DNA from: a virus | UHGV virus genome: UHGV-0876955 | DNA: 20,233 nucleotides | Reading direction: 5' to 3' (one strand) | In this document: positions 2,383 through 8,867 of the stretch, piece by piece | Position numbering within the stretch: position 1 is the stretch's first letter | Layout: each line of letters begins with the position of its first letter | Notes under the pieces: generated by a model | Seen by the model: only the letters and a program-made list of their open reading frames with translations | The model's database searches: none | Told to the model about the DNA's origin: nothing | Translations under genes and position numbers: made by a program

Positions 2383-2414
2383 TATTTTCGCATAACAACC
2401 ACATAGGAAAACAC

Positions 2415-2615
2415 ATGATCAAAATCTATCTATTGGCAGTATCCACAGGCCTTTCAGTGGCTCTCATCTACGGTTTACTAGTTCCGTCGCTGATTTCTAC
2501 CAAGAGTGATTTAGCCGTCATGTTTGGAGTTATCGTTGGTTTTGGTGCTCCTGTAATCGGTCTTATTGCTGGTCGTAAGTTTATCAACTCATTAATCAAA
2601 GCAAAGGGGAAATAA
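2415..2615 (+). CDS. Small hydrophobic membrane protein (66 aa), probably two TM segments
   Basis: ORF preceded by conserved start element aaccacataggaaaacacATG; hydrophobic sequence LLAVSTGLSVALIYGLLVPSLI ... VMFGVIVGFGAPVIGLIAG; stop overlaps SD of next gene. Confidence 0.5.
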   Translation: MIKIYLLAVSTGLSVALIYGLLVPSLISTKSDLAVMFGVIVGFGAPVIGLIAGRKFINSLIKAKGK

Positions 2616-2618
2616 GTA

Positions 2619-3449
2619 ATGAAGAAAGGTTTACTTGCAGTTGCTCTGGCGGCTATTTGCACAATGGGTCTTACTGGCTGCGATCGCGTGGAGCCTGGAT
2701 ACGTTGGCATCAAAGTAAACAAATTAGGTGAAGACAAAGGGATTGGTGAAGTGGTTGGCGTTGGTCGCCAATGGACAGGTCTTAATACCGAACTTTACGT
2801 ATTCCCGACCTTCAAACAAATGAAGACCTACGACGAGCCGTTCACATTCCAGATGAGTGACGGTACTGCTATTGGTCACAAAATTGGCGTTGCGTATCTG
2901 GTTAATCGTGACAAGGTAACGACGGTGTTCCAGACCTATCGCAAAGGCGTAGACGATATCACCGAATCAGATCTGCGTCAGAAAATTGCCGACTCTCTAA
3001 ACCGTTTGGCCAGCCGTATGACCACTGACTCATTTATCGACGGTGGTAAGGCACAATTGCTGGACAACGCACTGAAAGATATTCAGAAAGAGATGTCTCC
3101 GGTTGGTATTGAGGTACTGAGCCTGTCATGGGTTGGAAAGCCTGATTACCCAAAAACCGTCATTGAATCTATTAACGCCAAAGTAACGGCTAACCAGCGT
3201 ACTCTGCAACGTCAGCAGGAAGTTGAACAACGTAAAGCTGAGGCGAATATGCTACGTGAACAGGCTAATGGTGAAGCTGATGCTATCCGTGCTCGTGCGC
3301 AAGCAGAAGCAGACGCCATTCGTCTGCGCGGTGAAGCTCTGCGTCAAAACCCGAACGTTATGGAGCTGGAAGCCATCAATAAATGGAATGGCCAGTTACC
3401 GCAGTACATGACTCAAGGGGCTAACACTCCTTTCATTACAGTGAAATAA
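2619..3449 (+). CDS. SPFH/band-7 (prohibitin/HflC-like) lipoprotein
   Basis: Signal peptide with lipobox MKKGLLAVALAAICTMGLTGC; SPFH-like core and C-terminal Ala/Glu/Arg-rich helix (EADAIRARAQAEADAIRLRGEALRQNP) typical of band-7 proteins; SD aagggga upstream. Confidence 0.65.
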   Translation: MKKGLLAVALAAICTMGLTGCDRVEPGYVGIKVNKLGEDKGIGEVVGVGRQWTGLNTELYVFPTFKQMKTYDEPFTFQMSDGTAIGHKIGVAYLVNRDKVTTVFQTYRKGVDDITESDLRQKIADSLNRLASRMTTDSFIDGGKAQLLDNALKDIQKEMSPVGIEVLSLSWVGKPDYPKTVIESINAKVTANQRTLQRQQEVEQRKAEANMLREQANGEADAIRARAQAEADAIRLRGEALRQNPNVMELEAINKWNGQLPQYMTQGANTPFITVK

Positions 3450-3466
3450 CTCCCCTAAAAAGTTCA

Positions 3467-3491
3467 GGCGTCCAGTTGGACGCCTTTTTTA
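3467..3491 (+). terminator. Rho-independent terminator
   Basis: GGCGTCC-agtt-GGACGCC followed by TTTTTTAT; near-duplicate of the stem at 2329-2345. Confidence 0.6.
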
Positions 3492-3540
3492 TCGCAATTA
3501 TCTTATTAAGAAAACAATTTGTTTGAAAGGATAAGAAAAC

Positions 3541-3966
3541 ATGACAGCTATTAAGAAACTCTACGATGCTGCAAACGTGGCTCTGGATGTTATTGATGAT
3601 GAAGTAGCAAAAGGCTTTCCTGAACCTGATTGGGCGCATCAGCTACGAAACGCTATCGCAGAAATGACCCCACCAGATCCAACCCCCGACGAGACAGACT
3701 GGCAGCGATTCATCCGTATGTACGCTCAGGAAATAGGTCCAACGCCAACGGCAGAGCAGGCAATGCTGCTGAAATACTTCAAAGAGGCGGGAGAGGATTT
3801 ACCAATTGATGACTCAGCATATTGGTTCCACTGCGCATGGCGTAAGTATGACGTGATATTCACACAAGGCATGGGAAGCAAAGATATGGTTGTGTGGCAT
3901 CTACTCCATATAGACACAGCCGTTGACAGAGTTATTGAACAGTTTTTCCCTAAACAAGAAGATTGA
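3541..3966 (+). CDS. Hypothetical acidic protein (141 aa)
   Basis: ORF with SD gaaagga 8 nt upstream; strongly Asp/Glu/Pro-rich. Confidence 0.5.
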   Translation: MTAIKKLYDAANVALDVIDDEVAKGFPEPDWAHQLRNAIAEMTPPDPTPDETDWQRFIRMYAQEIGPTPTAEQAMLLKYFKEAGEDLPIDDSAYWFHCAWRKYDVIFTQGMGSKDMVVWHLLHIDTAVDRVIEQFFPKQED

Positions 3967-4020
3967 TCGCCTATTCATAACTAACAAAATAAGTAAACAC
4001 TAACCACAAAAGGAAAACAC

Positions 4021-6754: not shown

Positions 6755-6856
6755 ACCGCTGACAGCATACTTGATTTGCCGCTGGCAGCATACCAAAAAC
6801 AGTTGGCAGCATACGGCGAACCGTTGACAGACTATCAATTACCGCTGGCAGCATAC
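6755..6856 (+). repeat. Origin iterons upstream of repA (incC-like): 5 copies at ~21-bp spacing, two degenerate
   Basis: Same consensus as the downstream array; copies at 6755, 6778, 6801 (partial), 6820 (degenerate), 6841. Confidence 0.8.
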
Positions 6857-6903
6857 ATGAACATGGCTTCAGACCAGTCGTGGCGCGGCTTACAGCGATC
6901 GGG

Positions 6904-6969
6904 GATCTTATTTGATCTATACAAGGATCTATCTATGGATCTCTTTATTAGGATCTATCCTGTGGATAT
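6904..6969. promoter_or_regulatory. Origin-associated GATC cluster (5 sites in ~52 bp) plus DnaA-box-like TGTGGATAT
   Basis: GATC at 6904, 6914, 6926, 6938, 6952 within repeated gGATCTat units; tgtggatat at 6961-6969 matches the DnaA box complement TGTGGATAA at 8 of 9. Confidence 0.55.
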
Positions 6970-7055
6970 GTGAATAATTAAAACAGGCATTTACTACCTT
7001 CGGCGCACCTGGTGAGTTATCGTTGCCTCGGCTAACAATCACAGAAAAATGACAT

Positions 7056-7700
7056 ATGGATCTAAAACGCACGCGCTGGGTTCGTCGTCTTGAAAACGGC
7101 TCCTACACTATCGAATCAAATTCCAACCTGAATAAGCAGAAGTTGCTTTGTGACATCTGCGGTATAGCGGCGAAGTGCCCGATCTACGAAACCAGAATTA
7201 AACTTGATAAGGCTGGTGTGAACTTTCATTTAAACAGTTGCATCAGGTACGTTCCATTGCTCGCATTTCGTAAACCGATCATCGGATTGGATGCACCCTA
7301 CTTCAACACACTCCGTTCAGGTGTGACGTGGCGAGATCGTTTATCACCAGACAAGCTGATTTGCCTTGTATCCGCAGACACAGGGAAAATCATCCGTTTT
7401 GGGAAAGTAGACAAGGTTTACTCAGGCCCAGTAGACGAAATGTTGCGGAAACACAGCCGGTTTAATCATCTCTGTATGGGTGGTGAGAAAATCGAGAAGG
7501 TAGAAGAAGTGATCCGCAAATCCTACGGACACTTTCTGACCAAAGATAGCCTGCTCACCGCAATCTACATCAGACATGTAAAACGTGAGTTCGACCTCGA
7601 ATACCACAGCGAAGAAGAGCTTAACCTTGTTGACCCACGTCCAAAAGCTGGCGTCATAAGCATAAACGCAGCGCGTAAAAAGCCCACTGACGCGCTGTAA
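7056..7700 (+). CDS. Hypothetical protein (214 aa) with Cys pair CDICG...C
   Basis: Long ORF with protein-like composition; no recognisable family; no clear SD. Confidence 0.45.
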   Translation: MDLKRTRWVRRLENGSYTIESNSNLNKQKLLCDICGIAAKCPIYETRIKLDKAGVNFHLNSCIRYVPLLAFRKPIIGLDAPYFNTLRSGVTWRDRLSPDKLICLVSADTGKIIRFGKVDKVYSGPVDEMLRKHSRFNHLCMGGEKIEKVEEVIRKSYGHFLTKDSLLTAIYIRHVKREFDLEYHSEEELNLVDPRPKAGVISINAARKKPTDAL

Positions 7701-7824
7701 CCCTCCAGATCGTATATTGGCGTAGATAGAATCTACGCCTCCTCAAAATAGCTCTCATAGCGTTCTACAGTGATCCTGTCTTATTTTTAGTTATACAGAC
7801 AAGCAAAGTTGCGTCACAACAAAT

Positions 7825-7843
7825 AGGTATATACTTACTTATA
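7825..7843 (+). promoter_or_regulatory. Copy of recurring promoter-like motif
   Basis: taggtatatacttacttat, nearly identical to the copy at 19306-19324. Confidence 0.35.
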
Positions 7844-7928
7844 AATTTTGTATATTAAGACGTTCGTTTCATTCCTAACATACCGTTATGCATAGTTGTT
7901 TACCTTCTCATTGCTCTTAAAATTTGTA

Positions 7929-8867
7929 TCAAAATAACCACAAAGGAAAACACATGACTTTGCCACAAGTAGGGCATGGTGATCCCACTTTAGTACCAAC
8001 CTCTTCTGCTTTGGTCTTAAAATTACGCGCGCGGTTCATTGCATCAGCCTGACTATTTTCTGTAGCTTTGATGCTTGCCCGAATATCAGTTATCGCACCA
8101 CGAACTTTGAGCAACTTGGCGTCATGTTCTTCTTTTGAGGCTAACTTTTTGCGCTCACTTTCGATTGCCTTCTCGGTATCACGTATCTGTTCGGGAAGAG
8201 TGCGGATCTCAAGTTCAACTTCCGTTAACTCAACTTCGGCACTGGCCAGCCCAGCCAGGGCATCGTCATAACGTTTAGAACGCTCTTGCTCCCATGATTC
8301 AGAGGAGGCTTTCGCTGACTCAATTTCTGACTGTGTTGCCTCAATGGTCGAGATTGTCGACTCCAATTTGGTTTTAACCACATCCATACGTGCGGCAGCT
8401 GCATTAGCTCGCTCACGAGCAATAGCGTAGGCGCGTGTCAGTCTGTCAACGCCAGCGGCTTCTTCTACGATGGTTTTGAGGTTTTTGTCGGACATTCCAG
8501 GTAAATCTGGCATAGCTTCTTGGCTCGCATAGATGGAAGCCATGAAAACCTCTTTAGATGCACCGATCAGACGCTCGACGAACTCTTGCGTCAGCGCATC
8601 TTTGCCTTTCGTCATATCGCCGTCTTCACCACGAACGATAAGCCGATCCTGATTAATCCTTTTGTTGAGGGGGGATATCTTCCCAACGTCGGGCCTGGGT
8701 TTATTGCATCCCATGAAACTGAAGATCTTAACATTAATAGCGAAGGGTTCTTTGGGGGAATGGGTGCGCATCACTGTATGGCTTTCACGAACCTTATTCG
8801 ACTTGCCAATAAGCGGGTGGATAGTTTGGCATCGCCAGGTGATGCTTTTACTGGTTTCCTTATCCAA
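7929..8867 (-). CDS. SbcC/Rad50-like fragment (Q-loop region, coiled coil, CPTCG zinc-hook); lacks both ATPase domains, possible gene remnant
   Basis: Minus-strand translation IVRGEDGDMTKGKDALTQEFVERLIGASKEVFMASIYASQEAM, then ~190 aa of E/K/A-rich coiled coil, then GSPCPTCGK. Homologous part is roughly 7929-8642; the frame opens only at 8897 and no Walker A is encoded upstream in any minus frame. Confidence 0.4.
   Translation of the reverse strand: MDKETSKSITWRCQTIHPLIGKSNKVRESHTVMRTHSPKEPFAINVKIFSFMGCNKPRPDVGKISPLNKRINQDRLIVRGEDGDMTKGKDALTQEFVERLIGASKEVFMASIYASQEAMPDLPGMSDKNLKTIVEEAAGVDRLTRAYAIARERANAAAARMDVVKTKLESTISTIEATQSEIESAKASSESWEQERSKRYDDALAGLASAEVELTEVELEIRTLPEQIRDTEKAIESERKKLASKEEHDAKLLKVRGAITDIRASIKATENSQADAMNRARNFKTKAEEVGTKVGSPCPTCGKVMCFPLWLF

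What the first reader, a model, noticed from the sequence alone, without database searches (positions are those of the whole stretch)
2396..7956. Near-identical 21-nt start-context element reused at several gene starts
AACCACA-N-AGGAAAACACATG occurs at 2396-2417, 4002-4023 and 7936-7956, with a partial copy (aaaaggaaaaacacATG) at nrdB, 12226-12246. Conservation extends well beyond what a Shine-Dalgarno needs, suggesting a shared regulatory RNA structure or protein site, or short homology tracts that mediate modular gene exchange.
Basis: seen in the sequence. Interest (0 to 1): 0.4.

Follow-up and report, generated by a model that had tools for sequence, protein, structure and literature searches.

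The report
Shared ribosome-loading leader of phage-plasmid genes
The repeated 21-base element is real: it is the local version of a conserved start-of-gene leader (ribosome-binding site plus the fixed spacer AAACAC directly before ATG) used by about 14 DNA-metabolism genes of SSU5-like phage-plasmids, an interesting but fairly ordinary start-associated sequence and neither an RNA structure nor a recombination tract.

Summary
AACCACA-N(2-3)-GGAAAACACATG occurs at 2397-2417, 4002-4023 and 7936-7956, with no match in any of 100 shuffles. A partial copy lies at nrdB (12230-12246).

The window is a rearranged contig of an E. coli SSU5-like phage-plasmid, 97.5% identical to phage Cyrano.

The three copies belong to a larger family. 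In Cyrano the 9-mer AAACACATG occurs 11 times on the + strand and never on the - strand. Nine copies are at annotated starts and two head short upstream ORFs at primase and ligase. With up to 3 mismatches, the 15-mer AAGGAAAAACACATG has 14 copies, all at starts of non-structural genes that follow gaps of at least 43 nt.

Across Salmonella, Yersinia, Klebsiella, Enterobacter and Citrobacter relatives, positions -9 to -1 are conserved (0.88 identity, against 0.66 at third codon positions). The AACCACA half is conserved only at sbcD and primase.

The leaders are unstructured, have no Rfam hit, and do not coincide with mosaic breakpoints. No RegA homologue or trans antisense RNA was found.

Best reading: a lineage-specific start-associated ribosome-loading leader. 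A dedicated binding factor remains possible, because the invariant C residues are not what generic optima predict.

Two caveats. Copy 3 heads only a 32-codon sbcD remnant here. The four-A form of copies 2 and 3 is probably a homopolymer sequencing error.

The parts
2397..2417 (+). Copy 1: AACCACA-TA-GGAAAACACATG, leader and start codon of the 66-aa membrane protein gene
   Evidence: orthologous position in SSU5, Y. pestis and Citrobacter reads AACGACAAAAGGAAACACATG
4002..4023 (+). Copy 2: AACCACA-AAA-GGAAAACACATG, leader and start codon of a 91-aa ORF (phrog_2209, function unknown)
   Evidence: relatives read ACCAACAAGGAGAAGACACATG; five A in 16/16 E. coli-clade contigs
7936..7956 (+). Copy 3: AACCACA-AA-GGAAAACACATG, the ancestral sbcD leader and start; here it heads only a 32-codon chimeric ORF
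   Evidence: TATCAAAA(T/C)AACCACAAAGGAAAA(N)ACACATG, spanning the element, is almost invariant in six relatives, with one substitution and a variable or absent base in the A run
12230..12246 (+). Partial copy at nrdB: AAAAGGAAAAACACATG (3' half only)
   Evidence: relatives keep (G)GGAAACACATG although the rest of the leader has diverged
20114..20129 (-). TciA-type member AAAAGGAAAGCACATG on the minus strand, at an inverted junction of this contig
2327..2347 (+). Intrinsic-terminator-like hairpin after recA, upstream of copy 1
2357..2385 (+). Sigma-70-like promoter TTGAAA-17-TATTAT (10/12) enclosing the palindrome TAAGTACTTACTTA (2368-2381); it predicts a leader of about 23 nt that consists almost entirely of copy 1
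   Evidence: prediction only, the transcript start is not mapped
2415..3449 (+). Genes served by copy 1: 66-aa membrane protein (2415-2615) and SPFH/Band-7 protein (2619-3449)
4021..4296 (+). 91-aa ORF served by copy 2
7824..7841 (+). Palindrome TAGGTATATACTTACTTA about 95 nt upstream of copy 3 (putative promoter/operator of the sbcD unit)
7954..8052 (+). 32-codon remnant ORF: the first 4 codons of sbcD fused to inverted sbcC sequence
12202..12212 (+). Palindrome AACAACTTGTT about 32 nt upstream of the nrdB start (operator-like, one of 12 per genome)
12244..13386 (+). nrdB coding sequence served by the partial copy

Best explanation
The element is the mRNA leader and translation-initiation region of genes that start a new translational unit in an SSU5-like phage-plasmid. 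It is a lineage-specific start-associated sequence.

Its functional core is a purine-rich Shine-Dalgarno-like stretch (AAGGA or AAGAG/AAAGA) followed by an A run and the fixed spacer AAACAC that directly abuts AUG. It acts in cis on the RNA. It is an A/C-rich, essentially structure-free landing site that lets host 30S subunits load de novo on genes that follow an intergenic gap and so cannot rely on translational coupling.

The 5' AACCACA part is simply the rest of a very short leader. For copy 1 the predicted sigma-70 promoter leaves about 23 nt of leader. This part is conserved across clades only at sbcD and at the primase upstream ORF, and in the E. coli clade two further genes (copies 1 and 2) have drifted to the same sequence.

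Shown: position, strand specificity, enrichment, restriction to non-structural genes after gaps, purifying selection on positions -9 to -1, and absence of structure.

Inferred: that the selected property is ribosome loading by the host ribosome alone, without a dedicated factor.
For: Register and strand:
- AAACAC abuts ATG with zero spacing variation in every copy.
- In Cyrano, AAACACATG occurs 11 times on the + strand and 0 times on the - strand, against about 0.6 expected per strand. Nine copies are at annotated starts. One is in frame 66 nt upstream of the annotated primase start and one heads a 19-codon ORF before ligase.
- The 15-mer with up to 3 mismatches has 14 copies on the coding strand, all at starts, and 1 on the other strand.
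- CAC is the commonest -3..-1 triplet (12/123 genes, 1.7 expected) and AAACAC the only recurrent 6-mer before starts (9, next best 2).

Gene class:
- All 12 CAC-type genes follow gaps of at least 43 nt, against 64/111 other genes (Fisher p=0.002).
- All are non-structural: helicase, primase, ligase, cobS, dnaE, SSB, sbcD, nrdB and small ORFs.
- None is among the genes reported as expressed in the lysogen (PMC9928086).

Low structure:
- Mean MFE of -30..+33 is -5.4 kcal/mol, against -9.3 for other genes (p=0.0002) and -8.0 for other genes after gaps (p=0.01).
- Single folds give z +1.2 to +1.95, and there is no consensus structure.

Selection:
- In orthologues from 3-7 sequences each (six relative loci plus the window and Cyrano; relatives about 72-83% identical to the window in this region), identity at -9..-1 is 0.88 in motif genes. 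It is 0.67 in control genes (p=0.005) and 0.66 at third codon positions (p=0.02).
- At nrdB the rest of the leader and even the SD changed, but AAACACATG stayed.

General usability as a ribosome-binding site:
- The same 15-mer sits in 93 unrelated viral contigs among the first 118 hits, and in 75 of them the ATG opens an ORF of at least 60 codons.
- An HNH cassette that splits dnaE in Enterobacter and Klebsiella relatives supplies GGGAAAAACACATG to restart the downstream half.

Literature: A-rich sequence upstream of start codons and low structure promote initiation in E. coli (PMC7043885, PMC7264876).
Against: - The invariant cytidines at -3 and -1 are not what generic optimisation predicts. 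[quoted passage not shown] Changing upstream A to C abolished reporter expression in another study (PMC7043885).
- Selection for 'unstructured and A-rich' alone should allow many A/C/U permutations, yet one 6-mer dominates.
- T7, another coliphage, has no recurrent spacer at all (maximum 2/57; AAACACATG 0 copies).
- This specificity fits a sequence-reading partner better.
- No transcript starts, ribosome occupancy or reporter data exist for these genes. The promoter for copy 1 is a consensus match only.
Confidence: 0.5

Rival explanations
1. The motif is the operator of a post-transcriptional regulon. A phage-plasmid-encoded or host RNA-binding factor reads (A)AAACACAUG and its flank, and so co-ordinately represses or activates translation of about 14 DNA-metabolism genes. 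This would work like T4 RegA on early mRNAs, or like T4 gp32 on unstructured RNA. The element encodes a gp32-like SSB whose own start carries the motif.
For: - Sequence-specific conservation of a spacer that generic rules would not choose.
- One dominant variant per genome, absent from T7.
- The target set is replication, recombination and nucleotide-metabolism genes, as for RegA.
- The motif persists even where the SD is degenerate, at primase, Ead and Eae (AAGAAAAACACATG, AGAGAAAAACACATG).
- The same unanswered question is on record for mycobacteriophage SAS (PMC3203893).
Against: - No RegA homologue in Cyrano, the window or six relative loci (tblastn, best E=0.78).
- No trans-encoded antisense sequence.
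- 20 small conserved proteins of the element all fall in PHROG families of unknown function, so there is no candidate.
- The 15-mer serves as a start context in many unrelated phages that cannot share the factor.
Confidence: 0.25
2. The element works at the DNA level, as a binding site for a transcription factor or as a promoter-proximal (initial transcribed) element of a promoter class.
For: - Copy 1 lies at about +5 to +25 of a good sigma-70-like promoter.
- The two halves AACCACA and AAACACA form an imperfect direct repeat about 12 bp apart (read directly from the sequence).
Against: - The register is fixed to ATG and not to any promoter. The distance to the upstream palindromes or promoters ranges from about 16 to about 130 nt, and the motif follows three different upstream contexts.
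- There is no dyad symmetry.
- It also heads a restart ORF inside a split dnaE gene and short upstream ORFs.
Confidence: 0.08
3. The copies are short homology tracts (linkers) at which recombination swaps gene modules. Alternatively, they are kept alike by gene conversion.
For: - In the E. coli clade, copies 1 and 2 are closer to the sbcD version than their orthologues in other clades are.
- Gene content varies around copies 2 and 3 between clades.
- The element encodes recombinases.
Against: - Homology blocks between clades pass through copies 1 and 2 unbroken, and block ends lie 40-115 nt away at terminator or promoter positions.
- The membrane/SPFH module absent from Enterobacter and Klebsiella relatives is bounded at 2348-2356 and 3553, not at the element.
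- The rearrangement junctions of this contig use other microhomologies.
- Identity tracts of 12-21 nt are at or below the usual length needed for homologous exchange (own knowledge).
Confidence: 0.05
4. The copies share a regulatory RNA structure, such as a hairpin, riboswitch or thermometer.
For: RNAalifold on six sbcD leaders proposes pairing of an upstream segment with the element.
Against: - That structure carries a covariation penalty (+3.4), has 1 compensatory pair among 42, and is broken in the E. coli clade.
- Single folds are no better than shuffles (z +0.25 to +0.9).
- The copies themselves fold worse than shuffles.
- There are 0 consensus pairs among 12 paralogues.
- There is no Rfam hit at E<=1.
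Confidence: 0.02

Closest known systems
Start-associated sequences (SAS, with extended ESAS) of cluster K mycobacteriophages (Pope et al. 2011, PMC3203893)
   Same: - Short asymmetric repeat that contains the SD.
- Sits next to the start codon of a subset of genes.
- One orientation only, with ATG starts preferred.
- Confined to the non-structural half of the genome.
- Conserved across subclusters at different gene families.
- Often preceded by inverted repeats.
- Function unproven; a role in translation initiation, with or without a binding factor, has been proposed.
   Different: - Unrelated sequence (GGGATAGGAGCCC against AAGGAAAAACACATG) and a different host phylum.
- SAS lie 3-7 bp from the start, whereas this motif abuts ATG.
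- SAS is G/C-flanked and extends SD pairing, whereas here the conserved part is the A/C spacer.
- The palindromes upstream here also occur without the motif, so they are not an 'extended' part of it.
26-bp repeat upstream of 8 gene starts in Citrobacter myophage Mordin (Felix O1-like; PMC4611695)
   Same: Enterobacterial phage. A repeat including an SD-like GGAG just upstream of several hypothetical early genes, described by its authors as SAS-like.
   Different: Different sequence (CCAACAATCCTAAACTGGAGAATCTA) and an unrelated phage. No comparative or conservation analysis is available.
Translational operators of phage T4 RegA
   Same: A set of early DNA-replication mRNAs shares sequence around the spacer and AUG. 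In T4 that sequence is bound by one repressor (T4 annotation; details from own knowledge).
   Different: No RegA homologue is encoded here. T4 targets are A/U-rich (for example gene 44 GAGGAAATTATG and gene 45 AAGGAAATTACATG), not AAACAC. Binding here is untested.
Generic A-rich, unstructured translation-initiation regions of E. coli mRNAs (PMC7043885, PMC7264876)
   Same: SD plus an A-rich spacer, low folding energy, and use of the same 15-mer at gene starts of many unrelated phages.
   Different: Generic rules do not fix one spacer sequence and disfavour C. Here one 6-mer is used at 9-11 starts per genome and is kept in orthologues.
Promoter-early stem-loop (PeSL) modules of T4-like phages and 'boundary sequences' of lambdoid phages (own knowledge, not checked in the library)
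   Same: Short repeated sequences at gene boundaries in a mosaic phage genome.
   Different: Those carry a promoter and hairpin, or coincide with mosaic junctions. Here there is no hairpin and no coincidence with junctions.

Membership tests
Start-associated sequence (SAS)-type element (class defined by Pope et al. 2011) | Short asymmetric repeat present in many copies per genome | tested here: met
   14 copies of the 15-mer (<=3 mismatches) in Cyrano and 5 members in the 20-kb window
Start-associated sequence (SAS)-type element (class defined by Pope et al. 2011) | Located immediately upstream of predicted start codons and including the SD position | tested here: met
   All copies abut ATG. 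9 of 11 exact 9-mers are at annotated starts and the other 2 head upstream ORFs
Start-associated sequence (SAS)-type element (class defined by Pope et al. 2011) | One orientation only, matching gene direction | tested here: met
   9-mer: 11 on the + strand, 0 on the - strand. 15-mer: 14 against 1
Start-associated sequence (SAS)-type element (class defined by Pope et al. 2011) | Restricted to non-structural genes | tested here: met
   All members lie between 32 and 86 kb of Cyrano (replication, recombination, nucleotide metabolism, small ORFs). None lies in the 0-28 kb virion and lysis module
Start-associated sequence (SAS)-type element (class defined by Pope et al. 2011) | Conserved at orthologous genes across diverged relatives | tested here: met
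   Identity at -9..-1 is 0.88, against 0.66 at codon position 3 and 0.67 in control genes
Start-associated sequence (SAS)-type element (class defined by Pope et al. 2011) | Consensus 5'-GGGATAGGAGCCC (homology to the mycobacteriophage element) | tested here: not met
   The consensus here is AAGGAAAAACACATG. It is an analogue, not a homologue
Start-associated sequence (SAS)-type element (class defined by Pope et al. 2011) | Rare in the host chromosome | not tested
   No tool here counts a 9-15-mer over an E. coli chromosome. Only T7 was used as a control (0 copies)
Start-associated sequence (SAS)-type element (class defined by Pope et al. 2011) | About half the copies carry upstream inverted repeats (ESAS) | tested here: inconclusive
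   Two palindrome classes lie upstream of about 7 of 14 members, but they also occur at genes without the motif
T4 RegA regulon | A RegA-family translational repressor is encoded | tested here: not met
   tblastn of T4 RegA against Cyrano, the window and six relative loci: best E=0.78
T4 RegA regulon | Shared sequence over the spacer and AUG of several early replication mRNAs | tested here: met
   (resemblance in layout only)
T4 RegA regulon | Repressor binds the site and blocks 30S | not testable with these tools
   Needs binding and toeprint assays
Recombination linker / PeSL-type module boundary | Mosaic junctions between relatives coincide with the repeat | tested here: not met
   Block ends lie at 2348-2356, 3524-3553, 5057 and 7690-7821. 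Blocks run through copies 1 and 2
Recombination linker / PeSL-type module boundary | Stem-loop next to an early promoter | tested here: not met
   No hairpin in or around the copies
CsrA-binding site | GGA presented in a hairpin loop, usually two or more sites per leader | tested here: not met
   One GGA per leader, no hairpin, and GGA missing in the primase, Ead and Eae members
Any curated cis-regulatory RNA (Rfam 15) | Match to a covariance model | tested here: not met
   0 matches at E<=1 over the whole window, both strands

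The most novel reading that the evidence does not exclude
AAACACAUG-type leaders are the operators of an undescribed post-transcriptional regulon of SSU5-like phage-plasmids, a group that includes Y. pestis pMT1-type and Salmonella SSU5/pHCM2-type elements. A factor unrelated to RegA would read the fixed A/C spacer on about 14 mRNAs. Candidates are the gp32-like SSB, whose own start carries the motif, or one of the many conserved proteins of unknown function. The factor would couple translation of replication, recombination and dNTP-synthesis genes to the state of lytic DNA replication. Motif-headed upstream ORFs would pass the control on to primase and ligase by translational coupling.
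Probability: 0.2. Interest if true: 0.6.

Novelty: new member of a known kind. Interest (0 to 1): 0.3.

Why it matters
- **Annotation.** The motif is a practical marker for true gene starts and small upstream ORFs in a large, clinically widespread group of phage-plasmids (813 related plasmid records). It suggests an earlier primase start or upstream ORF, a ligase upstream ORF, and the restart of a split dnaE.
- **Open question for start-associated sequences.** The motif shows that such sequences, so far described mainly in mycobacteriophages and still without a known mechanism, also exist in enterobacterial elements. Reporter and ribosome assays are easy in these hosts, so the question of whether such motifs need a dedicated factor becomes directly testable.
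- **If no factor is involved.** The motif would then simply be a compact, structure-free ribosome-binding cassette.

Tried and rejected
- **Shared RNA structure.** Single folds, a paralogue alignment and orthologous sbcD leaders all gave nothing better than shuffles. Rfam gave no hit.
- **Recombination tracts.** Clade-to-clade homology block ends and this contig's own junctions do not fall in the element.
- **RegA-like repressor.** No homologue by tblastn.
- **P1 c4-like antisense RNA.** No complementary sequence elsewhere in the genome.
- **Candidate RNA-binding proteins.** Pfam on 10 window proteins and PHROGs on 20 Cyrano proteins gave only 'unknown function' or unrelated domains.
- **CsrA site.** One GGA per leader, no hairpin, and GGA absent from some members.
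- **MazF (ACA) processing to leaderless mRNA.** Considered from memory only and not testable here, so left aside.
- **Literature.** No paper in the held library on SSU5, pHCM2 or pMT1 mentions ribosome-binding or translation-initiation regions. One bioRxiv preprint on a phage-plasmid promoter could not be opened.

Full report
**What the window is**

The 20,233-nt window matches the replication, recombination and nucleotide-metabolism region of SSU5-like phage-plasmids.
- It is 97.5% identical to Escherichia phage Cyrano (pLF82) and about 77% identical to Salmonella phage SSU5.
- It has 813 related plasmid records in Klebsiella, Escherichia, Enterobacter, Yersinia (pMT1-type), Salmonella and Citrobacter.

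The contig is not clean.
- Bases 1-44 are adapter-like. The same 44-mer opens the record of the unrelated phage HK140.
- 5077-6867 carries a different (Rep3/RepB) replicon from Cyrano.
- 7958-8647 is an inverted internal piece of sbcC.
- 20100-20233 is an inverted copy of the TciA start region. Both inversions are joined through short microhomologies.
- All five long A-run differences from Cyrano are 1-nt contractions in the window, and thyX is split by a 1-nt insertion.

**The observation**

The pattern AACCACA-N(1-3)-GGAAAACACATG matches at 2397-2417, 4002-4023 and 7936-7956, all on the + strand. No shuffle of 100 gave any match. The nrdB partial copy is at 12230-12246.

- Copies 1 and 2 open conserved ORFs of 66 and 91 codons.
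- Copy 3 is the sbcD start in all intact relatives. Here it is followed after four codons by inverted sbcC sequence, giving a 32-codon remnant.
- Copies 2 and 3 have five A in Cyrano and in 16/16 and 12/12 related IMG/VR contigs.

Given the last point, the window's perfect 12-nt identity among the three copies is probably a homopolymer artefact. With five A, copies 2, 3 and nrdB share the 15-mer AAGGAAAAACACATG, and copy 1 differs slightly.

**The copies belong to a larger family**

I listed the 40 nt before all 123 Cyrano genes and counted words.
- AAACACATG occurs 11 times on the + strand and never on the - strand, against about 0.6 expected per strand.
- Nine copies are annotated starts: dnaE, SSB, the membrane gene, the 91-aa ORF, sbcD, nrdB, TciA, Ead and Eae.
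- One lies 66 nt upstream of, and in frame with, the annotated primase start. One heads a 19-codon ORF just before ligase.
- CAC is the commonest triplet before starts (12/123, 1.7 expected). AAACAC is the only recurrent 6-mer (9 copies, next best 2).
- With up to three mismatches, the 15-mer has 14 copies on the coding strand, all at starts, and 1 on the other strand.
- All members are non-structural genes lying between 32 and 86 kb.
- All 12 CAC-type genes follow gaps of at least 43 nt, against 64/111 other genes (p=0.002).
- None is among the genes reported as expressed in the LF82 lysogen (PMC9928086), which fits lytic-cycle genes.
- In T7, used as a control coliphage, no spacer recurs more than twice in 57 genes and AAACACATG is absent.

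**Conservation in relatives**

I read the same gene starts in seven loci from six relatives: SSU5 (two loci), an Enterobacter plasmid, Y. pestis pG8786, two Klebsiella plasmids and a Citrobacter plasmid.
- The 3' half is kept. Examples are cobS GTAAGGAAAAACACATG, dnaE AAAGGTAAAAACACATG, nrdB AGAGGGAAACACATG, TciA TAGGGAAAAACACATG and hyp87 TAAGGAAAAACACATG.
- Anchored at ATG, mean pairwise identity at -9..-1 is 0.88 in nine motif genes. It is 0.67 in twelve control genes (p=0.005), 0.66 at third codon positions (p=0.02), and 0.61 at -40..-21.
- A caveat applies: genes were classed as motif genes by their Cyrano sequence, and each comparison has only 3-7 sequences.

The 5' half AACCACA behaves differently.
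- It is invariant at sbcD, where TATCAAAA(T/C)AACCACAAAGGAAAA is identical in six relatives apart from one substitution in the Citrobacter plasmid.
- It is present at the primase upstream ORF in both Cyrano and SSU5.
- The orthologues of copies 1 and 2 outside the E. coli clade read AACGACAAAAGGAAACACATG and ACCAACAAGGAGAAGACACATG.

So the 21-nt near-identity of three copies is specific to the E. coli clade. The family-wide signal is the SD-like purines plus AAACAC plus ATG.

*RNA structure.*
- The leaders of copies 1, 2 and nrdB fold worse than 178-199 of 200 shuffles.
- Twelve paralogues have no consensus pair.
- sbcD leaders from three clades fold no better than shuffles, and the RNAalifold proposal for them has a covariation penalty and breaks in the E. 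coli clade.
- Rfam finds nothing.
- Motif leaders are in fact less structured than other starts: -5.4 against -9.3 kcal/mol.

*Modular exchange.*
- BLAST blocks between the window and each relative run through copies 1 and 2.
- The membrane/SPFH module missing from the Enterobacter and Klebsiella relatives is bounded at 2348-2356 (just after the recA terminator) and at 3553.
- The block containing copy 3 starts at 7821, at the upstream palindrome.
- The contig's own junctions use CTTTGCCA inside sbcD and GAAACCnAACATGT, not the element as such.

*Protein or other factor.*
- No RegA homologue was found and no trans antisense.
- Thirty proteins screened gave no candidate.
- None of this excludes an unknown factor.

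**How it most likely works**

Three properties point to a function on the mRNA in translation initiation: the zero-tolerance register with ATG, the strand specificity, and use at restart positions. The restart positions are the split dnaE and the short upstream ORFs whose stops overlap the primase and ligase start codons in SSU5.

For copy 1 the context is complete on paper.
- The recA terminator lies at 2327-2347.
- A TTGAAA-17-TATTAT promoter lies at 2357-2385 and encloses the palindrome TAAGTACTTACTTA.
- The resulting leader is about 23 nt and is essentially the element.

The other copies differ. Copy 2 lies in a 54-nt gap inside a unit that starts at a different palindrome (3513-3523). Copy 3 lies about 95 nt after a palindrome of the first type (7824-7841). 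nrdB follows a palindrome of the second type (12202-12212). The motif is therefore independent of the promoter or operator class.

The same 15-mer heads ORFs of at least 60 codons in 75 of 93 unrelated viral contigs, so host ribosomes evidently use it widely.

I therefore favour a cis-acting, structure-free ribosome-loading cassette (confidence 0.5).

The main reservation is the fixed C at -3 and -1. Published randomised-spacer and reporter data favour A and disfavour C (PMC7264876, PMC7043885). One sequence dominating a genome family, yet absent from T7, looks like something is reading it. This keeps a dedicated-factor model alive (0.2-0.25).

**Comparison with what is known**

The closest described thing is the start-associated sequence of cluster K mycobacteriophages. 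That is an asymmetric 13-mer containing the SD, found in one orientation next to mostly ATG starts of non-structural genes, often with inverted repeats upstream. Its function was still open in 2025 (PMC3203893, PMC12699233). A similar 26-bp repeat was noted in the Citrobacter phage Mordin (PMC4611695).

The present element meets the class features tested. It is unrelated in sequence, so it is an analogue.

In layout it also resembles the T4 RegA regulon, but the defining protein is absent.

I found no description of this motif for SSU5, pHCM2 or pMT1 elements in the held library.

**Verdict**

The element is a new member of a known kind, of modest interest, with one open and testable question: whether it is read by the ribosome alone or with a factor.

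Noticed in passing
window 1-44: Adapter-like sequence CCTATCCCCTGTGTGCCTTG..., which from memory resembles the 454 Titanium primer B. The same 44-mer begins the GenBank record of the unrelated phage HK140. It suggests a 454-type assembly with untrimmed adapter.
   Followed up: partly
window 4013, 7044, 7946, 12222, 18423 (A runs); 15092: All five long A-run differences from Cyrano are 1-nt contractions in the window. A 1-nt insertion at 15092 splits thyX into ORFs 14502-15119 and 15106-15606. These are likely homopolymer and other sequencing errors, and they affect the A-run length of copies 2 and 3.
   Followed up: yes
window 7958-8647, 8642-8647, 20100-20233: Two inverted segments relative to all relatives are joined through 6-19-nt microhomologies. 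One is an internal sbcC piece and the other is the TciA start region. sbcD and sbcC are destroyed. The 312-codon minus-strand ORF 7929-8867 is a by-product. This is either a chimeric assembly or a private rearrangement.
   Followed up: partly
window 193-2322: recA is interrupted by an intein with a LAGLIDADG homing-endonuclease domain (Pfam Intein_splicing, LAGLIDADG_3 and RecA). SSU5 and Y. pestis relatives have the uninterrupted 358-aa recombinase. The 5' end of the gene is cut off by the adapter-like start of the contig.
   Followed up: partly
window 3513-3523, 12202-12212, 20142-20152; Cyrano 12 sites: The palindrome (A)AACAAnTTGTT(T) occurs 12 times in Cyrano, always intergenic and 23-76 nt upstream of + strand gene starts (TerS, ParA, helicase, nrdB, TciA and many small ORFs). 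In relatives it is often embedded in a longer repeat, GATAATAACACCAACAAGAAAACAAnTTGTTTAA. It looks like an operator or promoter class. No description was found.
   Followed up: partly
window 2368-2381, 7824-7841, 19306-19323; Cyrano 12 further sites: A second palindrome class, TA(A/G)GTA-N(2-6)-TAC(C/T)TA, is always intergenic and upstream of + strand genes (tail, fibre, sbcD, thyX, dam, parB and others). At 2357-2385 it overlaps the spacer and -10 of a sigma-70-like promoter. It may be a repressor operator scattered over the genome, as with P1 C1 operators.
   Followed up: partly
L161 (SSU5) 9838 and 13591; Cyrano record 33534 and 36071: Motif-headed short upstream ORFs lie in front of primase and ligase. 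In SSU5 a 23-codon ORF ends on the primase ATG, and a 12-codon ORF ends in TAATG on the ligase ATG. In Cyrano the primase one is in frame with the gene, which suggests a mis-annotated start or a coupling leader.
   Followed up: partly
L006 6844-7561, L008 8820-9537: In Enterobacter and Klebsiella relatives dnaE is split by an HNH/NUMOD4 endonuclease cassette. The insert-specific DNA replaces about 210 nt of dnaE and supplies GGGAAAAACACATG as the start context of the 389-codon downstream half. That half is not listed as a gene in the plasmid tables.
   Followed up: partly
window 5077-6867: The replication initiator differs from Cyrano and SSU5. Here it is a 404-aa Rep3/RepB-type protein on the minus strand (5640-6854), as in many E. 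coli and some Klebsiella relatives, in place of their RepA. This is replicon swapping inside an otherwise collinear region.
   Followed up: no
L015 (IMG/VR contig 3300013306_000162) 2595-2615 minus strand; L040: The exact 21-mer AACCACAAAGGAAAACACATG also heads a 66-codon ORF in a viral contig with no nucleotide similarity to Cyrano. A one-base variant heads a 222-codon ORF in another. These are independent occurrences at gene starts.
   Followed up: partly
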